A DNA stretch of 64,000 nucleotides, from NCBI RefSeq assembly GCF_026210795.1, contig NC_089432.1, positions 3,348,001-3,412,000 on the forward strand. Reading direction: 5' to 3'. Below, piece after piece: positions 1 through 64,000 of the stretch; the stretch's first letter is position 1; each line of letters starts with the position of its first letter. The position numbers were made by a program, and so were the translations under genes. Below the pieces are notes generated by a model. It was not told where the DNA came from. It ran no database searches and was given only the letters and a program-made list of their open reading frames with translations. This DNA comes from Rhizophagus irregularis. Its lineage: Eukaryota.

Positions 1-1317
1 AATCGCACACCGTGATTTGGTAATTTATTTTATACTGTACTACAATTATATTTGTCAAATGTATGATAATTACTCATTCATTTTATTTTTAATGTACCGT
101 ACTTGAAATAATAGCATTCTAATAATGTATTAATTCATCAAAGTGTCATTAAGTTAACCGATTTTGGACTGTCAAAGCGAATCGAAGAATCATCAAATAT
201 TCAACCAAAATTACATGAAAAGGTCACGTATATTGATCCAAAAATATTTAATCAAGTGCAAATCTATTCATTGAATAAAAAGAGTGATATATACAGTATT
301 GGCATACTCTTTTGGGAAATATCTAGTGGCCGACCTCCTTTTTGTAATGAACCTTGTGATGATAATAATTTGGCTATAAGAATTCTACATGGTCTTAGAG
401 AAGCACCTATTTCTGATACACCTGAGGATTATATAAAACTTTATACTGGTAAATATAAATCTCAATTCAATTTTTAATACTGTTTAATTAATTTAAATTT
501 AAATTTTATTTTATACCATTTAGATTGTTGGAATAGTGAACCGGATAATCGTCCAACTATTAATCAGGTTGCTGATAAATTAAAGGCAATTAGTACAAAA
601 AATAATAATTGTAATATTAATGCGGATGTCCAGTTATTAGGTGAACAACCGTTTAAGCTTAAATCGAATGTTATTGAGGTTCCTAAAAATATTAAATATT
701 CACCATTTGAAAATTTATCACAAGTTATCCAAAATTTTGGCAAGATAAACATAGAAGAAATGGAACCTACAACATATATCGTACCTGTTAATATTATAGT
801 TGATGAAATAATAAATATTCTTAATAAATTAGAAGAAGTAGAAGAAAAACAGGAAATTCTTAATTATCTTAATAATTATAATATAACTTCACAAGAAATT
901 TATTATTGGTTATTAAATAATCAAGATAATTCCAATTCTGTTCTTCTGCTTGGTGTATTTTATTATTTAGGAATTTGGATTGATGTTAATAAACAAAAAG
1001 CATTTGAATTATACCAAAAAGCAGCAAATTTAAGTAATAGCATAGCTCAATATAATCTTGCTTTTATGTATGATAAAGGAGATTATGTTAACCAAGATAG
1101 AGAAAAAGCCTTTGAATTATTTAAAAAATCATCCGAGGGCGAATATCCAGAAAGTATATGCATGTTAGGATATTATTACCAATATGGTATTGAAACCGAT
1201 TTGGATAGTAAAAAGGCATTTGAATTATATCAAAAAGCTGCAAATTTAGGAAATATTATAGCTAAATATAATCTCGCTTTTATGTATAAAAACGGAGAAA
1301 ATTATTGGACAAGTTAG
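1..1317 (+). CDS. Kinase-Sel1 repeat gene g1 (5' part outside window; last Sel1 repeat appears truncated)
   Basis: Exons <1-19, 115-448 and 524-1317 with GT..AG introns. Spliced translation gives HRDL|HSNNVL..TDFG..YIDPK..SDIYSIG..CWNSEPDNRP, followed by Sel1 repeats (AQYNLAFMY, KAFELYQKAA). Confidence 0.85.
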
Positions 1318-1757: not shown

Positions 1758-4129
1758 CTAAATTATCTTACAATCATCATGTCTAGTTTTTGAAAGCTGA
1801 CATAATTTATAATAAGCTTCTTTATGTCCTTGGTCAGCAGATTTTTTATACCAATATGCTGCTTTATCATAATCTTTTGCAGTTCCATATCCATTTTTGT
1901 ACATAAAAGCAAGATTATATTGAGCCTGACTATCACCTAATTCCGCTGTTTTTTGATATAATCCGAACGCTTTACGCTTATTAATTTTGGTTCCTATTCC
2001 ACTTTCATAACAGCGTCCTAACATTACAATACCGTCTAAACATTCTTCAGCTGATTTTTCAAATAATTTAAAAGCTTTACTATGATTTTTATCAACTCCA
2101 TCTCCATTTAAATATAAAAGACCAAGATTATATGTCGCTAATAAATTTTCTTTATCCGCAGCTTTTTGATACCATCGGGCGGCCAATTTTAAATCTTTAT
2201 CAACACCTATTCCCATACAATAACAATAACCTATATTTAATTGTCCCGCTGCGAAATCTTTATTCGCTACTTCGTTAAAATATCCAATAGCTAATTTTTC
2301 GTTTTTTGCAGTTCCGTATCCCTTGTGGTAGCATATTCCGACGTAATAATTTGCTAATATATAGGACTTTTTCTGTCCTGATGCATTATTATTAGATATA
2401 TTAGATGCACATTTAAATAATCGAAATGCACTTTCATAATTTTTACTTGTCTCAATTCCCACGTAATAAAAATATCCAAGCAAAAAAATGAAGTCTAAAT
2501 CATTCTGATTATCTAATAATTGTTTATAAATTTTCAGTGAATCTATCTCATTTTTATTAAAATAATCTATAATATTCTGTCCTATTGTTGTTGTTTCTTT
2601 TTTTTCTGTTATCATAAAAACAAATTCTATTAACTTGTTAACTACATTCGGATCCTCTTTTTCGGGTAAAATATTAGTGTTTCTACCGGATGATATTAAA
2701 ATTTCTGTAATTTCTTTATTAAAATCAGATAATTCTCCTCCGTTTAATGAATTGTTAATACTTACATGGAAAGGTACTGGTTCATAATTATTATTATTGG
2801 TATGTGTCACGTCAATAATTGTTTTTAATCTATTAAACACATCATTCATATTTGGACGATTATCTGGTTCACCATCCCAACATTCTAAATGAAACAAAGT
2901 AAGCTTTAGTTAAAATGTCGTTGATATTATCGTTATATTACATATAATGAGTTGACTAATAATATAAATAATTTAAATTATATTTACCAACATAAAGCTT
3001 ACTATAATTAGGCGGTGTATTTGGAACAATCGTTTCTCTGAGACCTTGTGTGATTCGTTTGGCTAATTCACGATCATATTGTTTGCCTTCGAAAGGTGGT
3101 TTACCGCTTGATATTTCCCATAGAAGCACACCAATACTGTAAACATCACTTTTCTTATTTAATAAATATGATTGTTCTTCAACGAATCCTTTTGGTTCAA
3201 AATACGGAATAACACCAACTAATCGTGATTGAGGGTTGGATATTTCTTTAATTCCTTTTGATAATCCAAAATCAGATACTTTTATTGTATTTTGATGAAC
3301 TAATACACTACCGGAATGCTATTAAATAATACAAATTAATAAAATATCAAATACAAGTAAATCTTACAAATTATTAAATTATGATAAATTACCAAATCAC
3401 GATGCACAATTTCTTCATTATGTAAACACAATACTGCACAAGTCAATTGATATGCCAAATTGTATTTGTCATTCCAAGTAAGTTTACCGAAGTTTCTTTT
3501 CAAATAGTTTTGTAAGGATCCGCCATCAGCATACTCCATTACTAATAAATAATTTATTATCTGATCATTCGAAATTTCTATATTATAAAGAAAACACGTT
3601 ATTCAAGTGTAAATATACTGTATAAAAGGATTGGTTTCATTTTTCAATTTTTTTTTTATTTTGGCATCTTTTAAATACGATTCCCGTATAGAAAAAATGG
3701 ACGCTTAACGATTTTTCTTAAACGCTGAATAAGATAATAATTAATTTATTATTTACCTTGAGTAATTCCATAATAACTTATAATATTACTATGAAAAGCA
3801 ACCTCCTGTTGAAGACCGAGCTAATTAATTATAAAAAAAAAATAACTTCGGTTAAAGTTATTTAAAGGCATATTTAAGAATAAGTATATATATATAGGTA
3901 CCTCATGAACAAGTTCTTTAATAGTAATGTTATCAAGTTTGTTAAAAGATTTTAACGCAAAATATTGTCCTGAATTTCTCCAATTTGCACGATAAACTTT
4001 ACCAGAGTTGCCAGAGCCAATTTCTTGAATATTACTAAAATGCTTATGTTCATAAAGCTTAATGTATTTTTTAGAAATAGCATCCTCAATCCATTCATTA
4101 TAATTGCCAGTTTGGTTGTTATGAGACAT
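1758..4129 (-). CDS. Kinase-Sel1 repeat gene g2 (5 exons, about 7 Sel1 repeats, ends CKII)
   Basis: Exons 4129-3902, 3820-3757, 3577-3393, 3318-2988 and 2884-1758. Motifs [40 protein letters not shown]; Sel1 repeats in the last exon. Confidence 0.9.
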
Positions 4130-5054
4130 AGTGAGCTTTTTTCTGTAAAAAAGCTTACACAATTTTACGGAAAGTTTTGTTATTCGAATGTAGAAAAAAT
4201 AAAATGGCGTTTTATGCAATTATGTCACTCTCTACTACGCCTGATTATTATGATTGGCCCAATCATTGACATTGTAACATTGTTTATCGATCATATGAAT
4301 AAATATTTACCGCCAAAATAATTAGTATTGTCGGAGTTAATATGCACAAATATTAAAATCAGGTAATTTGAATTATGTCCGGCGTATTATTATAAGAAGT
4401 ACAGTGCGGGTCCCAAAATGCGTAGCGGCAAGACATACTTGATATCGCTTTAAAATCTACAAACTTTCTTTGCTATTTATTTATCTATTTATTTATTTAT
4501 TTATTATTTATTTATTTATTTTGAATTAGTACCGCATTTCTTTATTAAAATATATAAAACTATATCATAGATTACATATTTTTAAGAAATACCTAGAAAC
4601 GCACGTTCCAAGGATTATGCATCTCTATAATTAAACATTCTATCTAAAGAGCTGATCTATGCAAATCTATACTATACTAAAATCTCTTTTGTATTTATTT
4701 TGAAATTAATTAATTAATTAGTAAATTTTGTAAGCTTAATGACGAAATATACACGTAAGTTGATTTCGGTTCACGACTCCGTTAAATCAACATACGCTTA
4801 TTACTTAATTTGGAAATGATGTTCTACAAACATATAAAATAAGGTACATAAAGGTGCTACGTTTACACATTTCTTTTATAAACTTTCCAAAAATGACAAT
4901 ATAACAAAGACTCGTCACAAAAACCTGTTAATAGAACAATGAAATCAATATATATGTGCGTTATTTTAAAAAAGTAAAATTTTTTTTTATTCAACGCACA
5001 GTTTTTTATTTTATGCTTTTAATATTACTGTAGTGATTTTTTCCAGTATTTTCC

Positions 5055-48148: not shown

Positions 48149-49858
48149 TGGTCCGGTGCAAAAAGATTTGTACCTCAAACAGAGGACCGAAAAAAAAATT
48201 TTTTATTATGTAAATTTTTTTTTTTATTTAATTATATCAATAACATGTTGGAAAAATCAAAATATGAATATTAGATTAAATAACGCAATCTTCATCAGAA
48301 TTATCATATTCGTCAAAATCTTCATCCATTAATTGTGCGTTATCGTCAAATTCTAAGTATTCCTTAGCATTTTTAAGTGCTCTTCTCCAGAACCCAATGA
48401 TTACCTGTGATGTAATTTTTTTTTTAAAAGCATTTAAAAGTGTATTTCGAACAGATAAAAGGTTTGGATGTGGGCCTGAATGTGCAACTTCACCCTTCAC
48501 AACTGACCAAATACCTTCAATTGGCTGAAGTTCACAATGATATGGAGGGGTAAATGAAACTTCATGTTCATACTGTTTTGCAATTTTAACACAAGCAAAT
48601 GTCACCTTTTCTTTGTTCATTTGAACCAGCTCCAAAAGTTCTGGTCTTCTTAATTCATCAGAAAAAACAATATTGTGAGCATTTAGCCAATCAATTATTT
48701 CCTGCTTTTTTGTATTTGAAGTTGGAATATTTTCAACCCGCCGTTTATGATAACTTGCTCCATCCATATGAATATTTACAGGTCCATATTTTTCATAAAG
48801 TGCTTTACAAAGAGTTGAAAAAAGGTCTTCAAAAATTTCTGCATTAAAATTTCCATGATAATCTACTTGATTTGGCATAATATTTGCATCTTTGACAACA
48901 TCGGGAATGTTATCCCATTCATCAGCATTGTTTCTTTTTCGTCCCCGGTTTCCAGGAGGTTTAATTGTTGGGTCCCAAATGTGAACAGAGTTGGGAACAA
49001 GTTCACCATGTAGTTTGTTGGAAGATCCATTTCGGAATACAATAATTGCTCCAAAAATTACTACTAATGGACCATGTCCAGGTGCTAAAACAACACCTTG
49101 ATGGGGAACCCATGTATTGCGTGAAGTATGATGTAAATGACAGTAAGACTCATCAAGAAAGACTTCTGGACGACGTGGAACATCATTTTTTCCTTCTAAA
49201 TTAGCAAAACGAAATCGAAGATAACGGCAACGGTATGCAACATTATTTGGTGACTCATGGAGAATGTTTCTACGTTCTCCCTGGCCAAAATAATAACCCA
49301 AGCGATGTAATACTCGAAGAAGCTTCCATTTAGAAAAATTATATCCTTGTTCTAGAAGATACTGTCGTAGGATAACTGTGGAAAGTTGCTCAGCCTTTTT
49401 GTTGGCATCCAAAATTTTTGTACGCAAAAGTTCTGAAACATTTTCATCGGGTTGAAATTTAGGTCTTCCGAGGACTTTATGTGGTGTAAAAGTATCATCA
49501 CTGCGGTTGTACCAGTCCGACACCACACTTCCAACTGTACCCTCAGCTACACCCAATATCTCAGCAATATGCTTGCGTAATGTTAGCTTATGATGATCAT
49601 TACTTGTAGAGCTATCCCCCAAAAGATAGTTGTGAATGTTAATTATCATTGATTTTTCGTTATCTGTTAATGGTGCACCATTTCGTTTCAGGAAATGAGA
49701 ATATATGGTATGGAAAAAAATTTTTGAGAGAATGTGTGTTTGGATATGTTCTAACAAATTCTTGAATATCAGCCCACCTTATTTAAGTCGTACGATATTT
49801 TTATTGGCGTAAATCCATCCCTTTTTTGGTGAGGTACAAATCTTTTCGCACCGGACCA
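48149..49858 (-). mobile_element. IS630/Tc1/mariner-type DNA transposon, apparently intact (1710 bp)
   Basis: 29-bp TIRs TGGTCCGGTGC(A/G)AAAAGATTTGTACCTCA with one mismatch, TA on both sides, and a single long transposase ORF. Confidence 0.92.
48276..49649 (-). CDS. DDE transposase with DD81E spacing (Sailor/DD82E-like)
   Basis: HTH-like region (IAEILGVAEGTVGSVV), VFLDESY, IHMDGASYH and PPYHCELQPIEGIW. I count 81 residues between the second D and E. The first in-frame ATG is at 49649; the frame is open up to 49757. Confidence 0.88.
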   Translation of the reverse strand: MIINIHNYLLGDSSTSNDHHKLTLRKHIAEILGVAEGTVGSVVSDWYNRSDDTFTPHKVLGRPKFQPDENVSELLRTKILDANKKAEQLSTVILRQYLLEQGYNFSKWKLLRVLHRLGYYFGQGERRNILHESPNNVAYRCRYLRFRFANLEGKNDVPRRPEVFLDESYCHLHHTSRNTWVPHQGVVLAPGHGPLVVIFGAIIVFRNGSSNKLHGELVPNSVHIWDPTIKPPGNRGRKRNNADEWDNIPDVVKDANIMPNQVDYHGNFNAEIFEDLFSTLCKALYEKYGPVNIHMDGASYHKRRVENIPTSNTKKQEIIDWLNAHNIVFSDELRRPELLELVQMNKEKVTFACVKIAKQYEHEVSFTPPYHCELQPIEGIWSVVKGEVAHSGPHPNLLSVRNTLLNAFKKKITSQVIIGFWRRALKNAKEYLEFDDNAQLMDEDFDEYDNSDEDCVI

Positions 49859-57300: not shown

Positions 57301-57639
57301 TATATACAAACAATGTTATTATTTATTTAAATGAAAATTTTCACTAATACCTTTTGATAAATCAAATGTTTAGCTTCTTTCTATTTGTAAGGACCCTGAG
57401 CTATACATAAAAAGGTAGAGTAAGGGTTTGCCACCCCATTCGGGTGATCATCAAAAGTTATAACCTTACGATTTATGTCACCCATAGGCCATAATTTAAT
57501 GTCACGTGACCCGATTTTTAATTCTGGCCTGACATGCGCAATTTTGGCATGTTAATTTTGGAACACATTACATACATTAATTACTGTACATGTTATCCAG
57601 ATGTAACATGCGTTAATATCATCGCACGTTACTTTTATG

Positions 57640-58290
57640 TAATATGCGCTAATTTGAACGCATGTTCTCTGATGTAACATGCGGTGATTCAGACGCATGT
57701 TATTCATCTGTAACATGCGATAAATTGGACGCATGTTACCCATCCGTAACATGCAGTGATTCAGATGCATGTTACAGATGGGTAATTATGCATTAATTCT
57801 GGCACATGTTACTCATTCATAATATGCGTTAGTAATTTGGGCGCATGTTACACTTCTGTAATATGCATTAATTCTGGTGCATGTTATTCATCCGTAATAT
57901 GCGCTAATTTAGATGCATGTTACGCTTCTGTAATATGCGTTAATTCTGGTGCATGTTACTCATCCGTAATATGCGTTAATTCTGGTGCATGTTACGCTTC
58001 TGTAATATGCGTTAATTCAGGCGCATGTTATTTATCTGTAATATGCGTTAATTCTGGTGCATGTTTTTCATCCATAATATGCGCTAATTTGGGCGCATGT
58101 TACGAATGAGTAACATGCATTAATTTTGCCGCATGTTACACTTCTGTAACATGCGTTAATTCTGGCGCATGTTACTCATTCATAACATGCGCTAATTTGG
58201 GTGCATGTTACGCTTCTGTAATATACGTTAATTCTGGCACATATTACTCATCCGTAATATGCACTAATTCTGGCACATGTTTCCTAGTAG
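57640..58290. repeat. 36-bp tandem array (left arm of the foldback, roughly 18 units)
   Basis: Unit GTAA(C/T)ATGCG-TTAATTCTGG-(C/T)GCATGTTAC-(TCATCC/GCTTCT). Confidence 0.9.
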
Positions 58291-58604
58291 TAACTCTGAT
58301 GCATATTCCTTACTACAATGATTCTGATTTCTGACACATGTTCTTATGTTTAAAACATCAAATATTTAAACTAAGTATTACCAGAATCACTGCATTATAT
58401 TATAGAATATTGCATATTATACATCAGGAATATATGCAAGAATTGTTGTAAATACATTATAAATTTACATTGGAATATATGCTAAATTACTTCATATTTT
58501 ATTAATAAATAATATACAGCATCTGGAATATGTGCCATGATTACTACATATTATAGTAGAAAATTCATATTAAATTGTTATATTTATTTGAAATAGTATT
58601 TTCA

Positions 58605-59160
58605 GCAAAAAAATAGCAAAACAATAAAAAATTAACAAAAAAAAAAAATAAAATTAACAAAAAAAAATAAAACTAGCAAAAAAAAAAAATAAAATTAATA
58701 AAAAAAAAATAAAATTAATAAAAAAAAAAATAAAAAAAAATAAAAAATGAAAAAGAAAAAATTAAATATATAGGAATAAGAAAAAACAAATGATTATTAT
58801 ATTTGCATCAGTAAAGTGATTTACATGATCATAAAATTAATTACTTATAAATTTTAAAATATACTATGCAAATCATTTGTTTTTTATTATTTTTATTTTA
58901 TTTTGTTTTATTTTTTTTTTGTTGTTTTTTTTGTTTATTTTTTTGTTTATTTTTTTGTTTATTTTTTTTGTTTATTTTTTTTGTTTATTTTTTTTTGTTT
59001 ATTTTTTTTTGTTTATTTTTTTTTTTGTTTATTTTTTTTTTGTTTATTTTTTTTTTTGTTTATTTTTTTTTTGTTTATTTTTTTTTTGTTTATTTTTTTT
59101 TTGTTTATTTTTTTTTTGTTTATTTTTTTTTTGTTATTTTTATTGTTTTATTATTTTTTT
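58605..59160. repeat. A-rich then T-rich complementary low-complexity tracts at the foldback centre
   Basis: A-tract units at 58605-58760 and (TnGTTTA)n at 58880-59160. Confidence 0.85.
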
Positions 59161-59344
59161 GATTTTAAAAAAATAGCCATCTTTAATAAAGTTATATATA
59201 TTTCTAATGCATAATATGCAATATTCTATAATATAATATGCATTGATTTTGATAATACTTAGTATTAAATATTTGGTATTTTGGATATAAAAATATGTAC
59301 TAAAATCACTGTATGTTACAGTAAGGAATATAAACTAGAGTTAT

Positions 59345-60345
59345 TGCATGTTACTGTAGGGAACATGCGCCAGTAACATGTACCCAAATTAGCACATGTT
59401 ACGGATGAGTAATATGCGCCAGAATTAACGCATATTACAGATGAGTAACATGCACCAGAATTAACGCATGTTACAGAAGCGTAACATGTACTAGAATTAA
59501 TGCATGTTATGGATGAGTAACATGCGCCAGAATTAACGCATATTATGGATGAGTAACATGCGCCAGAATTAATGCATGTTACAGAAGCGTAACATGCGTC
59601 TAAATTAGCACATGTTACAGATGAGTAACATGCACCAGAATTAACGCATATTACAGAAGCGTAACATGCGCCCAAATTAGCGCATATTACGAATTAGTAA
59701 TATGCGCCAGAATTAACGCATGTTACGGATGAGTAACATGCGCCAGAATTAACGCATGTTACGGATGAGTAACATGCGCCAGAATTAACGCATATTATGG
59801 ATGAGTGACATACGCCAGAATTAATGCATGTTACAGAAGCGTAACATGCGTCTAAATTAGCGCATGTTACAGATGAGTAACATGCACCAGAATTAACGCA
59901 TATTACAGAAGCGTAACATGCGCCCAAATTAGCGCATATTACGAATGAGTAACATGCGCCAGAATTAATGCATGTTACGGATGAGTAACATGCGCCAGAA
60001 TTAATGCATGTTACGGATGAGTAACATGCGCCAGAATTAACGCATGTTACAGATGAGTAACATGCGCCAGAGTTAACGCATATTATGGATGAGTAACATG
60101 CGCCAGAATTAACACATGTTACAGAAGCGTAACATGCGCCCAAATTAGCGCATATTATGAATGAGTAACATGCATCAGAATTAACGCATATTACCCATCC
60201 GTAACATGCGTCTGAATCACTGCATGTTACAGATAGGTAACATGCGCCCAATTTATCGCATGTTACAGATGAATAACATGCGTCTGAATCACTGCATGTT
60301 ACATCTGAGTAATATGTACAGTAATTAGCGCATGTAACGTGTTCC
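59345..60345. repeat. 36-bp tandem array (right arm, inverted, roughly 27 units)
   Basis: Unit GTAACATGCG-CCAGAATTAA-CGCATGTTAC-(GGATGA/AGAAGC). Confidence 0.9.
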
Positions 60346-61121
60346 AAAATTAACATGCCAAAATTGCGCATGTCAGGCCAGAATTAAAAATCAGGTCACA
60401 TGACATTAAATTATGGCCCATGGGCCGCCTATATAAGGTTATAACCTATGCATTTGTAACATAAATCGTAAGGTTATAACCTTTGATGATCACCCGAATG
60501 GGGTGGGGTTTGCGTAGAACTGACCAAAATAATCATGTGGATCTTTCCTTTTATAGATAATACCAGCTATAATTTATTTCTTTTTTTAGACGCTGACTGG
60601 CATTATCATAATTCCGGCCCTGAAAAAATGCATAGATCTAATAGTAATTTTTTTTTGGCAGTACCTTACCTCTATATATATAGCTCGGGGTCCTTATTTG
60701 TATATCTGACAATTTTTATTTATTTATTTATTTATTTTATGTGAAGTCGGCAAGAGTTTTCAAAAAGACATGATCGATCCCAAAGAAAAGACCACCAGTT
60801 TAACATAGAACCCATCATCCACCAAGGCCGAAGCCAAGCCAGGCCCTTACTTCTAATTAAATGAAGCCCTATCCCATACTAGTACGTCCAATATAGGATA
60901 GTGAAATCTGACAAATTTTATATGGTAGTTTGTGAGAAATCATAAAATTGTTGTTGTCACGTGACTATTGACACAATAATTCCGGTGCAAAATTTGTTTG
61001 TCATACATGCAAATGCTTATGATCAACATAATACATAATGCATTTTGCATACCCATACTAAAAAAAAGATATTTACATTATCTTATTTAGTCAAAAAGCA
61101 TTTTAATATAATTATATAGTA

Positions 61122-63612
61122 ATGGCTCTCAGTAATGATAAAGGTAATGTATAGTATAAACATTTAATGCAATTAGAATTCATTTAATATTTTTAAACAA
61201 ATTTATAATATAATAAAACTAGTTTCTGGTAATATTGAATTTGAAGGAAGCAGCACTGAAGAATTTGAAGGAAGTGACTCTGGGGAATTCAAAGAAAGTG
61301 ACTCTGAAGAATTTGAAGGAAGTAGTACTAAGGAATATAAAGGTATATTAAACAAACTGAAATATTAAATAAATAATTTAAGTATTATATATAATTTTAC
61401 CTTATATGATACATATATATAATTTAAACTATCTATATTATTCAAATGATTTAGCTTGTAAGTTAATAGGTTATCTTATAATTGAATAACAAAGAAAATA
61501 CTTATTATTTTATTATATTTCATGTAACTGAATAATCCATTTAATGATACTATATCTGTAAGTTATCAGTTATTTTAAATCTTTAGTTCTTTACTTTATT
61601 TATTTTATAAAATAATCAAATAACTAAATTCCTTGTTTAAATGGTAAGTTACAACTTTATATTTATTTGACTAATATTTATATACTTTAACTAATATATT
61701 CTTAATTTAAATAATTAGATTGTAAGTAATATATTTAATTTACAGTAAATACTTTTGTATTATGTTTATATCATTAATTAATAATTGATAATACTACATA
61801 CAGGGTGTGAGTTATATTTATATTTTTATTATTTATATAATTTAAACTAACTATTTAAAAATTATTTTATAATTTTATTAGTTGGTAAGTTATAAATTAT
61901 TTATTTAATTCTATTATATTACTCATTTACATAATATTTACATATAATTTAAACTAACTAAATTCTTTATTTAATAGATCATAAGTTATAAGTTATTTAT
62001 TTAATTCTATTATTACTTTAACATATAATTTAAACTAACTAAATTCTTTATTTAAAAATTATTTATAGAGTGTAAGTTATTTATTTTTTATTACATACAA
62101 TTTATATAATTTAAGCTAACTAAATTCTTTATTTAAAAAATTATTTTGTAATTTTTTTAGTTAGAAGTAGCATCGAAGAATTTGAGGAAAATGACTCTGA
62201 AGAATTCAAAGGAAATGACTCTGAAGAATTTGAAGAAAGTAGTACTAATGAATCTAAAGGTATATTAAACAAACTGAAATATTAAATTTTTGTTTGTAAA
62301 TAATTTGAATACTATACCTTATATGATGCACAAATATAATTTAAACTATCTTATATTATACAAAAATTATTTTAAATAATTTAGCTCGTAAGTTGATAAG
62401 ATAACTTATAATTGAACAATAATGGGATTACTTACTATTTAATTATATTTCATGTAACTAAATAATTTATTTAATGCATAATAATACTATAGTCAGTAAG
62501 TTATCAGTTATTGTTCTTTACTTTACTTATTTTATAAAATATTCAAATAACTAAATTTTTTGTTTTAATAATTAATTATATTACAGATGGTAAGTTACAA
62601 CATTATATTTATTTGACAAATATTTTATATATTTTAACTAATTATATTCTTAATTTAAATAATTAGATTGTTAGTAATATATTTAATTTACAGTAAATAT
62701 TTTGTACTATGTTTACATCCAATTAATTAATAATTAATAATACTACATAAAGGGTGTAAGTTATATTTATATTTCTATTATTAATATAATTTAAACTAAC
62801 TAAATAATTTTATTTAAAAATTATTTTGTAATTTTTATTTAGTTGGTAAGTTATAAATTATTTATTTAATTCTATTATATTACTCATTATATAATATTTA
62901 CATATAATTTAAACTAACTAAATTCTTTATTTAAAAATTATTTAATAATATAGGGAGTAAGTTATTTATTTAATTCTATTATAACTTATTTATATAATAT
63001 TTATATATAATTTAAACTAACTAAATTTTTTATTTAAATAGATTGTAAGTTATAAGTTATTTAGTTCTATTATTACCTATTTATATAATATTTACATATA
63101 ATTTAAACTAACTAAATTCCTTATTTAAAAATTATTTTGTAATTTTATTTAGTTGGTAAGTTTAAGTTATTTATTTATTTATTTCTATTATTACTTATTT
63201 ACATAACATTTATAATAATTTAAACTACTTAATTCTTCATTCAATAATTTTATTTAGTTGGTAAGTTATAAGTTATCTATTTAATTTTATTATTACTTAT
63301 TTATGTAATATTTTACATATACTGTAATTTAAATTAACTAAATTTTCTATTTAATAGATTGTAAGTTACAAGTTATTTAATTCTATTATTACTTATTTAT
63401 ATAACTAAATTCTTTATTTAAATAGATTGTAAGTTATAGGTTATATTTATTTTACTTATTTATATAATATTTACATATAATTTAAACTAACTAAATTCTT
63501 TTTTAAAAAAAATTATTTAATAAATATAGGGAGTAAGTTATTAATTAATTCTATTATTACTTATTTATACTAACTAAATTCTTTATTGGAAAATTATTTA
63601 ATAATATAGGGG
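61122..63612 (+). CDS. Putative micro-exon gene (or gene relic): three ordinary exons plus about 22 three-nucleotide exons; 3' end not found
   Basis: Exons 61122-61143, 61223-61342 and 62161-62259, plus AG|NNN|GT(A/G/T)AGT units every 68-126 bp, mostly with a CTAAC/CTAA motif upstream. The spliced frame is stop-free. Three units have a damaged splice site. Confidence 0.55.
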
Positions 63613-64000
63613 GTAAGTTGTTTATTTAATTCTATTATTACTTATTTATATAATATTTACATATAATTTAAACTAATTAATGCTTTATGATATCTAAAAA
63701 ATTATTGTATAATTTATGAATTTTTGTATGAAGGCTTGGCGTGGCCTTTCAAAGAAATGGTCATTCCACAAATTTATACAGTGCTGAAATTTCTGTCATG
63801 TGACTTTATCATTTCTCTATTTCAGTTCTGCGCCCTTTTAAGTAATTATGACATGAAAACTCTTTCCCTTTTTTATGTTTTGTTAGTTTTCTGCTAATTT
63901 AGCGCAAGTTTTTTTTTTTTAGTTTCTATTAGAAACACCAAAGGGGAGAGGCCCAACTGGGTTTTTTGTTCTATACATACCCACATAATAAGGGATTATG

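What the first reader, a model, noticed from the sequence alone, without database searches (positions are those of the whole stretch)
61122..63612. Gene built from an array of about 22 three-nucleotide micro-exons hidden in AT-rich 'satellite'
Seen in sequence: the repeat unit has the form of an intron (GTAAGT...AACTAACT...TAG), and each acceptor is followed by exactly 3 nt and the next donor. Block 1: CTT 61455, TCT 61555*, ATG 61641*, ATT 61719, GGT 61804, TTG 61882, ATC 61978*, AGT 62069 (* = one splice site damaged). Block 2: CTC 62385, TCA 62493, ATG 62587, ATT 62667, GGT 62753, TTG 62843, GGA 62954, ATT 63042, TTG 63153, TTG 63258, ATT 63358, ATT 63426, GGA 63530, GGG 63610. Joined to exons 61122-61143, 61223-61342 (120 nt) and 62161-62259 (99 nt), the frame from ATG 61122 is stop-free: MALSNDKVSGNIEFEGSSTEEFEGSDSGEFKESDSEEFEGSSTKEYK-AFYDWFDQF-RSSIEEFEENDSEEFKGNDSEEFEESSTNESK-ALNDWFGNFVDYWR. 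Inference: every internal exon is a multiple of 3 nt, so any skipping pattern keeps the frame and rewrites codons. This could give combinatorial peptide diversity, conceptually like schistosome micro-exon genes but at single-codon resolution. Standard gene predictors and read aligners would miss it. I do not know of a description of this in Glomeromycota but cannot verify novelty.
Basis: partly seen in the sequence, partly recalled or inferred. Interest (0 to 1): 0.88.

Follow-up and report, generated by a model that had tools for sequence, protein, structure and literature searches.

The report
Fungal kinase genes with three-base exons
A root-symbiotic fungus writes part of a kinase gene family in exons only three bases long; RNA from sister genes shows such pieces joined one after another, this particular copy is likely broken, and the design would let the fungus vary a short protein segment one residue at a time.

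Summary
All 22 triplets are at the stated places, and 19 keep both splice sites. The two larger 5' exons are the acidic N-terminus of a Rhizophagus tyrosine-kinase-like (TKL) gene family. RNA laid on the 5' part shows sister genes splicing the triplets in series after that exon, including partly spliced forms. No listed form skips one of the first five triplets, so combinatorial skipping is unproven. Public gene models miss the array and appear to split the gene there. An independent AT-rich contig has 18 triplets leading stop-free into an intact kinase exon. This copy is likely a broken duplicate: block 1 has three damaged sites, no kinase follows in the last 387 bases, and none of the 214 polyA reads laid matches it at 99%. 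Codon-sized exon arrays are published for truffle NACHT-ankyrin genes, and this scan has noted them before on other DNA. What appears new is the lineage, the kinase host gene and the phase-1 layout, which splits every codon across two exons.

The parts
61122..61143 (+). Exon 1, 22 nt, start codon, ends in phase 1
   Evidence: Matches the N-terminus of family models. The following 79-nt GT-AG intron is spliced in all 4 runs laid; X19 has 17 reads from 13 starts (reads are from paralogues).
61223..61342 (+). Exon 2, 120 nt, acidic 8-residue repeats, ends in phase 1
   Evidence: 98% identical to P0001 and 75-83% over the whole exon to kinase models P0004, P0006-P0008. It has the highest RNA depth of the stretch.
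61455..62071 (+). Block 1: eight 3-nt exon units (61455, 61555*, 61641*, 61719, 61804, 61882, 61978*, 62069); * = splice site lost
   Evidence: The exon 2 to first triplet joint is seen in 2 X12 contigs, and partly spliced forms occur in paralogues.
62161..62259 (+). Exon 3, 99 nt, duplicate of the 3' part of exon 2
   Evidence: Alignment of the two blocks: 733 identical columns. Present in the strain-A5 model P0001 at 91%.
62385..63612 (+). Block 2: fourteen 3-nt exons, all with AG and GT (62385, 62493, 62587, 62667, 62753, 62843, 62954, 63042, 63153, 63258, 63358, 63426, 63530, 63610)
   Evidence: The first six triplets equal the X7 loose-end consensus at 18 of 18 letters (compared by eye).
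63613..63680 (+). Last intron unit, which breaks off about 65 nt in; unrelated sequence follows to the window end
   Evidence: Unit alignment. No kinase match in 60900-64000 by tblastn; the one frame translated has stops.

Best explanation
This is the 5' half of a Rhizophagus tyrosine-kinase-like gene in which runs of three-base exons likely spell a short aromatic-rich segment between an acidic repeat and the kinase domain; RNA from sister genes shows such triplets joined in series, and this copy is likely a duplicated, broken one that has lost its kinase. SHOWN: the array and its splice signals; serial joining of up to ten triplets after exon 2 in paralogue RNA; partly spliced forms with different introns retained; the same layout ahead of an intact kinase exon in another fungal contig. 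Because the array is in phase 1, each codon takes one base from one exon and two from the next. INFERRED: the mature mRNA normally includes all triplets. Diversity then arises mainly in the genome: the 70-110-nt intron-plus-triplet unit duplicates or is lost, adding or removing one residue without breaking the frame. The first five units are old and shared among paralogues, while later units are young copies and give paralogue-specific sequence. MOST SPECULATIVE: the variable segment is a specificity or partner-binding module of the kinase, by analogy with fungal non-self receptors.
For: Homologues: 10 of 29 fetched models carrying exon 2 also carry the kinase motif (PF07714). Orphan acidic models and kinase models have consecutive accessions (EXX74570/EXX74571, GBC52570/GBC52569, POG59374/POG59375), which implies genes split at the array. 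9 of 29 models splice to the first triplet and then read into the same intron (ARKLI tail; 10 of 11 residues match the window). RNA: loose ends behind exon 2 begin with joined triplets in X19 (36 polyA reads, agreement 0.59), X7 (7 contigs), X12 (3 contigs) and X6 (1 contig). Five listed joints hold 3-5 joined triplets beside a retained intron. L024: 18 triplets, phase 1, stop-free from ATG into a kinase exon 46-53% identical to P0004; its intron unit resembles the window's (91.5 bits against a maximum of 50.9 in 30 shuffles and 42.8 in other window pieces). Unit tree: units 1-5 pair between blocks with support 0.96-1.0, and units 6-13 have nearest neighbours at 90-98% identity.
Against: No read shows this copy spliced: X19 has 0 of 214 reads at 99% and 5 at 95-99%, though the strain may lack the locus. 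The paralogues' own genomes were not available, so their triplet order is inferred from RNA and from gene-model read-through. Loose ends are consensus strings of mixed paralogues, and 84 loose-end rows, 10 joints and 6 between-letter rows were not shown, so skipped forms could be hidden. One X19 consensus (23 reads behind 61336, agreement 0.65) reads with a stop codon as printed. X6, X7 and X12 are only guessed to be RNA. No read was seen linking the triplets to the kinase exon. Stop-free order is weak evidence alone: 50-65% of shuffled orders are also stop-free. Nothing here tests function.
Confidence: 0.7

Rival explanations
1. Combinatorial skipping (first reader; as reported for Tuber nank genes): each transcript includes a different subset of triplets, so one gene makes many peptides.
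For: Any subset keeps the frame; block 2 could give 5202 distinct peptides with no internal stop. RNA strings differ after the fifth or sixth triplet and X19 agreement is only 0.59. Published precedent.
Against: None of the listed RNA strings omits one of the first five triplets. The later differences are also expected from mixed paralogues. About 10% of block 1 patterns (27 of 256) and 21% of L024 patterns make a stop.
Confidence: 0.2
2. This copy is functional as it stands: either its kinase exon lies beyond the window behind a long last intron, or it makes a kinase-less acidic peptide of about 100 residues that acts as a decoy.
For: Block 2 keeps 28 of 28 splice dinucleotides; using only the intact units of block 1 is still stop-free. 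The same two-exon arrangement occurs in strain A5 (P0001).
Against: 3 of 16 splice dinucleotides are lost in block 1; the last unit breaks mid-intron; in L024 the kinase exon starts about 75 nt after the last triplet, whereas here none appears in 387 nt. The A5 model continues into unrelated sequence.
Confidence: 0.25
3. The joined strings come from intron-less or partly intron-less paralogues in DNA, and the array is an unspliced satellite.
For: Three of the four runs are only guessed to be RNA, and the check for the joined form in DNA runs was not given. Model P0008 has an aromatic stretch after exon 2 that I could not place.
Against: X19 is on record as polyA RNA. The forms retain different introns (before triplet 1, before triplet 2, after 1, after 4, after 5), as expected of splicing intermediates. 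Models from several strains show the introns in DNA.
Confidence: 0.07
4. The triplets are whole codons (phase 0) and spell a hydrophobic membrane segment.
For: That frame is open in the window and within the L024 triplets, and it is hydrophobic.
Against: It has no start codon in exon 1. All family hits use the acidic frame. In L024 both flanking exons demand phase 1.
Confidence: 0.03

Closest known systems
[quoted passage not shown] 2012, seen only through passages of PMC4986451)
   Same: Fungal symbiont; expanded paralogous gene family; multiple codon-sized exons; candidate diversification device.
   Different: Host gene here is a TKL kinase of Glomeromycota, not an NLR. The RNA seen shows serial inclusion, not alternative splicing. 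The phase and position of the Tuber exons could not be checked.
Schistosome micro-exon genes (MEGs; bioRxiv 10.1101/2023.06.21.545858, passages)
   Same: Runs of 10-20 very short exons, mostly multiples of 3; hard to annotate.
   Different: MEG exons are 3-81 bp, mostly 15, with introns of 0.1-5 kb and a signal peptide. Here all are 3 nt, introns are 65-125-nt copies of one unit, and the product is a kinase N-terminus.
Isolated or paired microexons of plants and animals (PMC8831610 passages; RPS24 3/18/22-bp trio, abstracts)
   Same: Exons of 3 nt or less are spliced; flanking introns are retained longer, as in the partly spliced forms here.
   Different: One to three microexons per gene, not 8-18 in a row made by tandem duplication.
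Expanded kinase repertoire of Rhizophagus irregularis (2,533 members; PMC10234402 passage)
   Same: Exons 1-2 belong to one PF07714 subfamily of it.
   Different: None of the 29 fetched models has the peptide that the joined triplets spell; this copy has no kinase domain in the window.

Membership tests
Tuber nank codon-sized microexon system | Multiple codon-sized exons in one gene | tested here: met
   22 units, 19 intact; joined in paralogue RNA.
Tuber nank codon-sized microexon system | Host gene is a NACHT-ankyrin NLR | tested here: not met
   Family models carry PF07714/PF00069 only.
Tuber nank codon-sized microexon system | Diversification by alternative splicing of the microexons | tested here: inconclusive
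   No skipped form among the listed rows, but the rows are consensus strings and many were not shown.
Schistosome MEG | Exons mostly about 15 bp between introns of 0.1-5 kb | tested here: not met
   All 3 nt, introns 65-125 nt.
Schistosome MEG | N-terminal signal peptide, secreted | tested here: not met
   The N-terminus is polar and acidic, judged from the translation; no predictor was run.
Rhizophagus TKL kinase subfamily (P0004 type) | Acidic N-terminal exons 1-2 | tested here: met
   75-83% identity to kinase models.
Rhizophagus TKL kinase subfamily (P0004 type) | PF07714 kinase domain downstream in the same gene | tested here: inconclusive
   Absent from the 387 nt left in the window; sequence beyond the window is not held.
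Simple satellite DNA | No link to splicing; uniform decay along the unit | tested here: not met
   Donor positions +2, +4, +5 and +6 are invariant in 22 of 22 units while intron bodies are 62-98% alike; RNA joins the triplets.

The most novel reading that the evidence does not exclude
Arbuscular mycorrhizal fungi carry a hidden class of kinases whose N-terminal recognition segment is written one split codon at a time. It is diversified both by cassette gain and loss and by skipping of the younger 3' triplets, giving each kinase gene a repertoire of specificities for sensing non-self, and it is invisible to all current annotations.
Probability: 0.2. Interest if true: 0.88.

Novelty: new variant of a known kind. 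Interest (0 to 1): 0.66.

Why it matters
It shows, with RNA support, that a fungus can splice at least ten three-base exons in a row, with every codon straddling a junction. It corrects the annotation of a kinase subfamily in the model mycorrhizal fungus, where orphan acidic 'genes' and headless kinases appear to be halves of one gene. It also points to a concrete variable segment in the large and unexplained kinase expansion of these fungi. Whether that segment varies by splicing or by DNA duplication can be tested with existing long-read RNA.

Tried and rejected
No whole genome is held for the window, so paralogue arrays in the same genome could not be read. No listed holder of the stretch is on record as RNA; this says nothing about expression. 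Reads were laid on 4 of the 24 listed runs and only on 60900-61848, so exon 3 and block 2 remain unexamined by reads. The exact exon-2 motif found 0 metagenome contigs, and the array pattern found 0 viral contigs. The general array pattern returned 106 loci from 1 of 64 parts of the metagenome collection; 71 of 106 hold GTAA-type simple repeats and were dropped, and 14 of the remaining 35 had chains of 3 or more units, so the estimate of about 11,000 stretches is mostly artefact. Three protein searches and one representative search found no database protein with the peptide that the joined triplets spell; all family hits with a name were Rhizophagus. Stop-free order as a sign of selection was rejected as too weak. 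The phase-0 hydrophobic reading was considered first and dropped. Iotti et al. 2012 is not held, and PMC5658179 had no relevant passage. No fold was attempted. Look-ups of earlier findings by sequence, by place and by one word set returned nothing.

Full report
OBSERVATION. In 61340-63700, 18 of 20 GT[AG]AGT donors have an AG exactly three bases upstream, against 2 of 20 elsewhere on the + strand and 1 of 22 on the whole - strand. YAGNNNGTRAGT occurs 18 times in the window, 17 of them in the array, with 0.83 expected and a maximum of 3 in 100 shuffles. 19 of 22 units keep both AG and GT; block 2 is 14 of 14 intact and the three losses are all in block 1. The two blocks, each with its upstream acidic exon, are one duplication (733 identical columns). 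Introns are 65-125 nt, and most hold a CTAAC/TAACT-like stretch 20-50 nt before the AG; reading it as a branch point is recalled, not tested.

WHAT GENE IT IS. The window is AT-rich and full of kinase-Sel1-type genes (label recalled). Exon 2 hits only Rhizophagus proteins, the best at 98% (P0001, strain A5 model), so the source is R. irregularis or very close (inference). Exons 1-2 are the N-terminus of PF07714 kinase models such as P0004 and P0007. Of the 49 proteins fetched, 29 carry the exon-2 motif. 10 of these 29 include the kinase motif, 9 splice to the first triplet and then read into the intron behind it, and none has the peptide that the joined triplets spell. That read-through tail matches the window at 10 of 11 residues, so other strains have the same intron after triplet 1. 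Orphan acidic models and headless kinase models have consecutive accessions in three annotations, which implies one gene cut at the array. One R. diaphanus model (P0008) has an aromatic stretch there that I could not place.

RNA. Four of 24 listed runs were laid on 60900-61848 at 80% likeness: X19 (polyA raw reads, about a quarter read) and X6, X7, X12 (contigs, RNA guessed), from four studies. The first intron is spliced in all four. Behind exon 2 the loose ends start with the triplets joined: 36 reads in X19 (agreement 0.59), 7 contigs in X7, 3 in X12 and 1 in X6. The X7 consensus equals the first six triplets of block 2 at 18 of 18 letters, and the X6 contig equals block 1 at triplets 3-7 (both compared by eye). 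The 30 letters printed cover ten triplets. Five listed joints show 3-5 joined triplets beside a retained intron, and two X12 contigs join exon 2 to the first triplet; the retained intron differs from form to form, as expected of splicing intermediates. No listed string omits one of the first five triplets, and the strings diverge after the fifth or sixth. Limits: the reads are from paralogues (X19 likeness 0/5/117/92 for 99+/95-99/90-95/under 90). The strings are consensus over mixed genes. 84 loose-end rows, 10 joints and 6 between-letter rows were not shown. One X19 consensus (23 reads, agreement 0.65) contains a stop as printed.

INDEPENDENT LOCI. A pattern scan of metagenome contigs returned 106 loci; 71 were simple-repeat artefacts and 14 of the other 35 had true chains. 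L024 (GC 0.17; its nearest Atlas clusters are mostly Mucoromycota where phylum is known) has a 52-nt ATG exon ending in phase 1, 18 triplets, and then a kinase exon, stop-free throughout. Its kinase is 46-53% identical to P0004, so it is a different subfamily. Its intron unit resembles the window's beyond controls (91.5 bits; shuffles up to 50.9; other window pieces up to 42.8), and most of its units group apart from the window's in the tree. L063 and L090 show an acidic exon ending in phase 1 followed by three triplets; L063 runs off the contig and L090 breaks off (read by eye).

MECHANISM. Shown: serial splicing of three-base exons in this family. Inferred: full inclusion is the normal product, giving a segment of 9-19 residues with many aromatic and charged residues ahead of the kinase. 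Units 1-5 pair between blocks (support 0.96-1.0), while units 6-13 are close copies of each other (nearest neighbour 90-98%). This mirrors the RNA pattern of a shared start and a variable end. The simplest engine is gain and loss of whole intron-plus-triplet cassettes, which never breaks the frame. I take the reading 'a variable segment built one codon at a time' partly from earlier notes of this scan, which are unchecked. Skipping stays possible for the younger units. A role in partner or non-self recognition is analogy only.

THIS COPY. It is probably broken: block 1 has lost three splice sites, the last unit stops mid-intron near 63680, no kinase follows in 387 nt (about 75 nt in L024), and the A5 model continues into unrelated sequence. 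Against this, block 2 keeps all 28 splice dinucleotides, and the DNA beyond the window is unknown.

LITERATURE. [quoted passage not shown] 2012, which is not held. That lead came from earlier findings. I read passages of the MEG preprint, PMC8831610, PMC10234402 and PMC3886924; the passages shown from the last two note the kinase expansion and mention no microexons. Ten full-text searches listed no paper describing such arrays in Glomeromycota or in kinases. I saw only listings and abstract starts for those results. Subscription papers and all supplements were unseen, and the Rhizophagus genome papers' supplements could bear on this.

VERDICT. A real, RNA-supported structure and a new variant of a known kind: the principle is published for truffle NLR genes and recurs in this scan's notes on other genomes, including kinase-HET fungal genes. 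What appears new is its presence in mycorrhizal TKL kinases, the phase-1 layout, and the explanation of split gene models. Interest 0.66.

Noticed in passing
window 57600-60340: Two arrays of a 36-bp repeat in inverted orientation (arms of about 460 nt, 84% complementary) enclosing a long A tract and a long T tract; foldback-element-like (label recalled). It sits about 800 nt upstream of the gene.
   Followed up: partly
window 115-52640: Nine places match the P0004 kinase at 25-37% identity, each near Sel1-like repeat ORFs; none has a triplet array (only four isolated matches outside the array).
   Followed up: partly
window 48276-49778 (-): 500-codon intron-less ORF that looks like a DDE transposase (recalled resemblance, not scanned).
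   Followed up: no
window 60911-60946: A 36-nt stretch upstream of the gene is shared with another transcript present in all four runs.
   Followed up: no
L024 380-2631 (-): Intact-looking TKL kinase gene with 18 three-base exons; the best candidate for a functional example.
   Followed up: yes
L014 about 3160-4430 (-): Chain of at least 16 varied triplets between dissimilar introns, downstream of an ORF with weak GTPase hits (PF00025 and PF01926, both below cut-off).
   Followed up: partly
L080 4065-6241 (+); L052, L010, L106: Further chains of 30, 15, 8 and 3 triplets at 70-80-nt spacing in more GC-rich contigs; three L080 downstream ORFs had no Pfam hit.
   Followed up: partly
L072 12-3175 (+): 45 units of about 72 nt, all with the same triplet; it could be a satellite or a homopolymer-coding array.
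   Followed up: no
L063 1-340 (-); L090 310-610 (-): Two related AT-rich contigs with an acidic phase-1 exon and three triplets; the L090 array breaks off, a second truncated example.
   Followed up: partly
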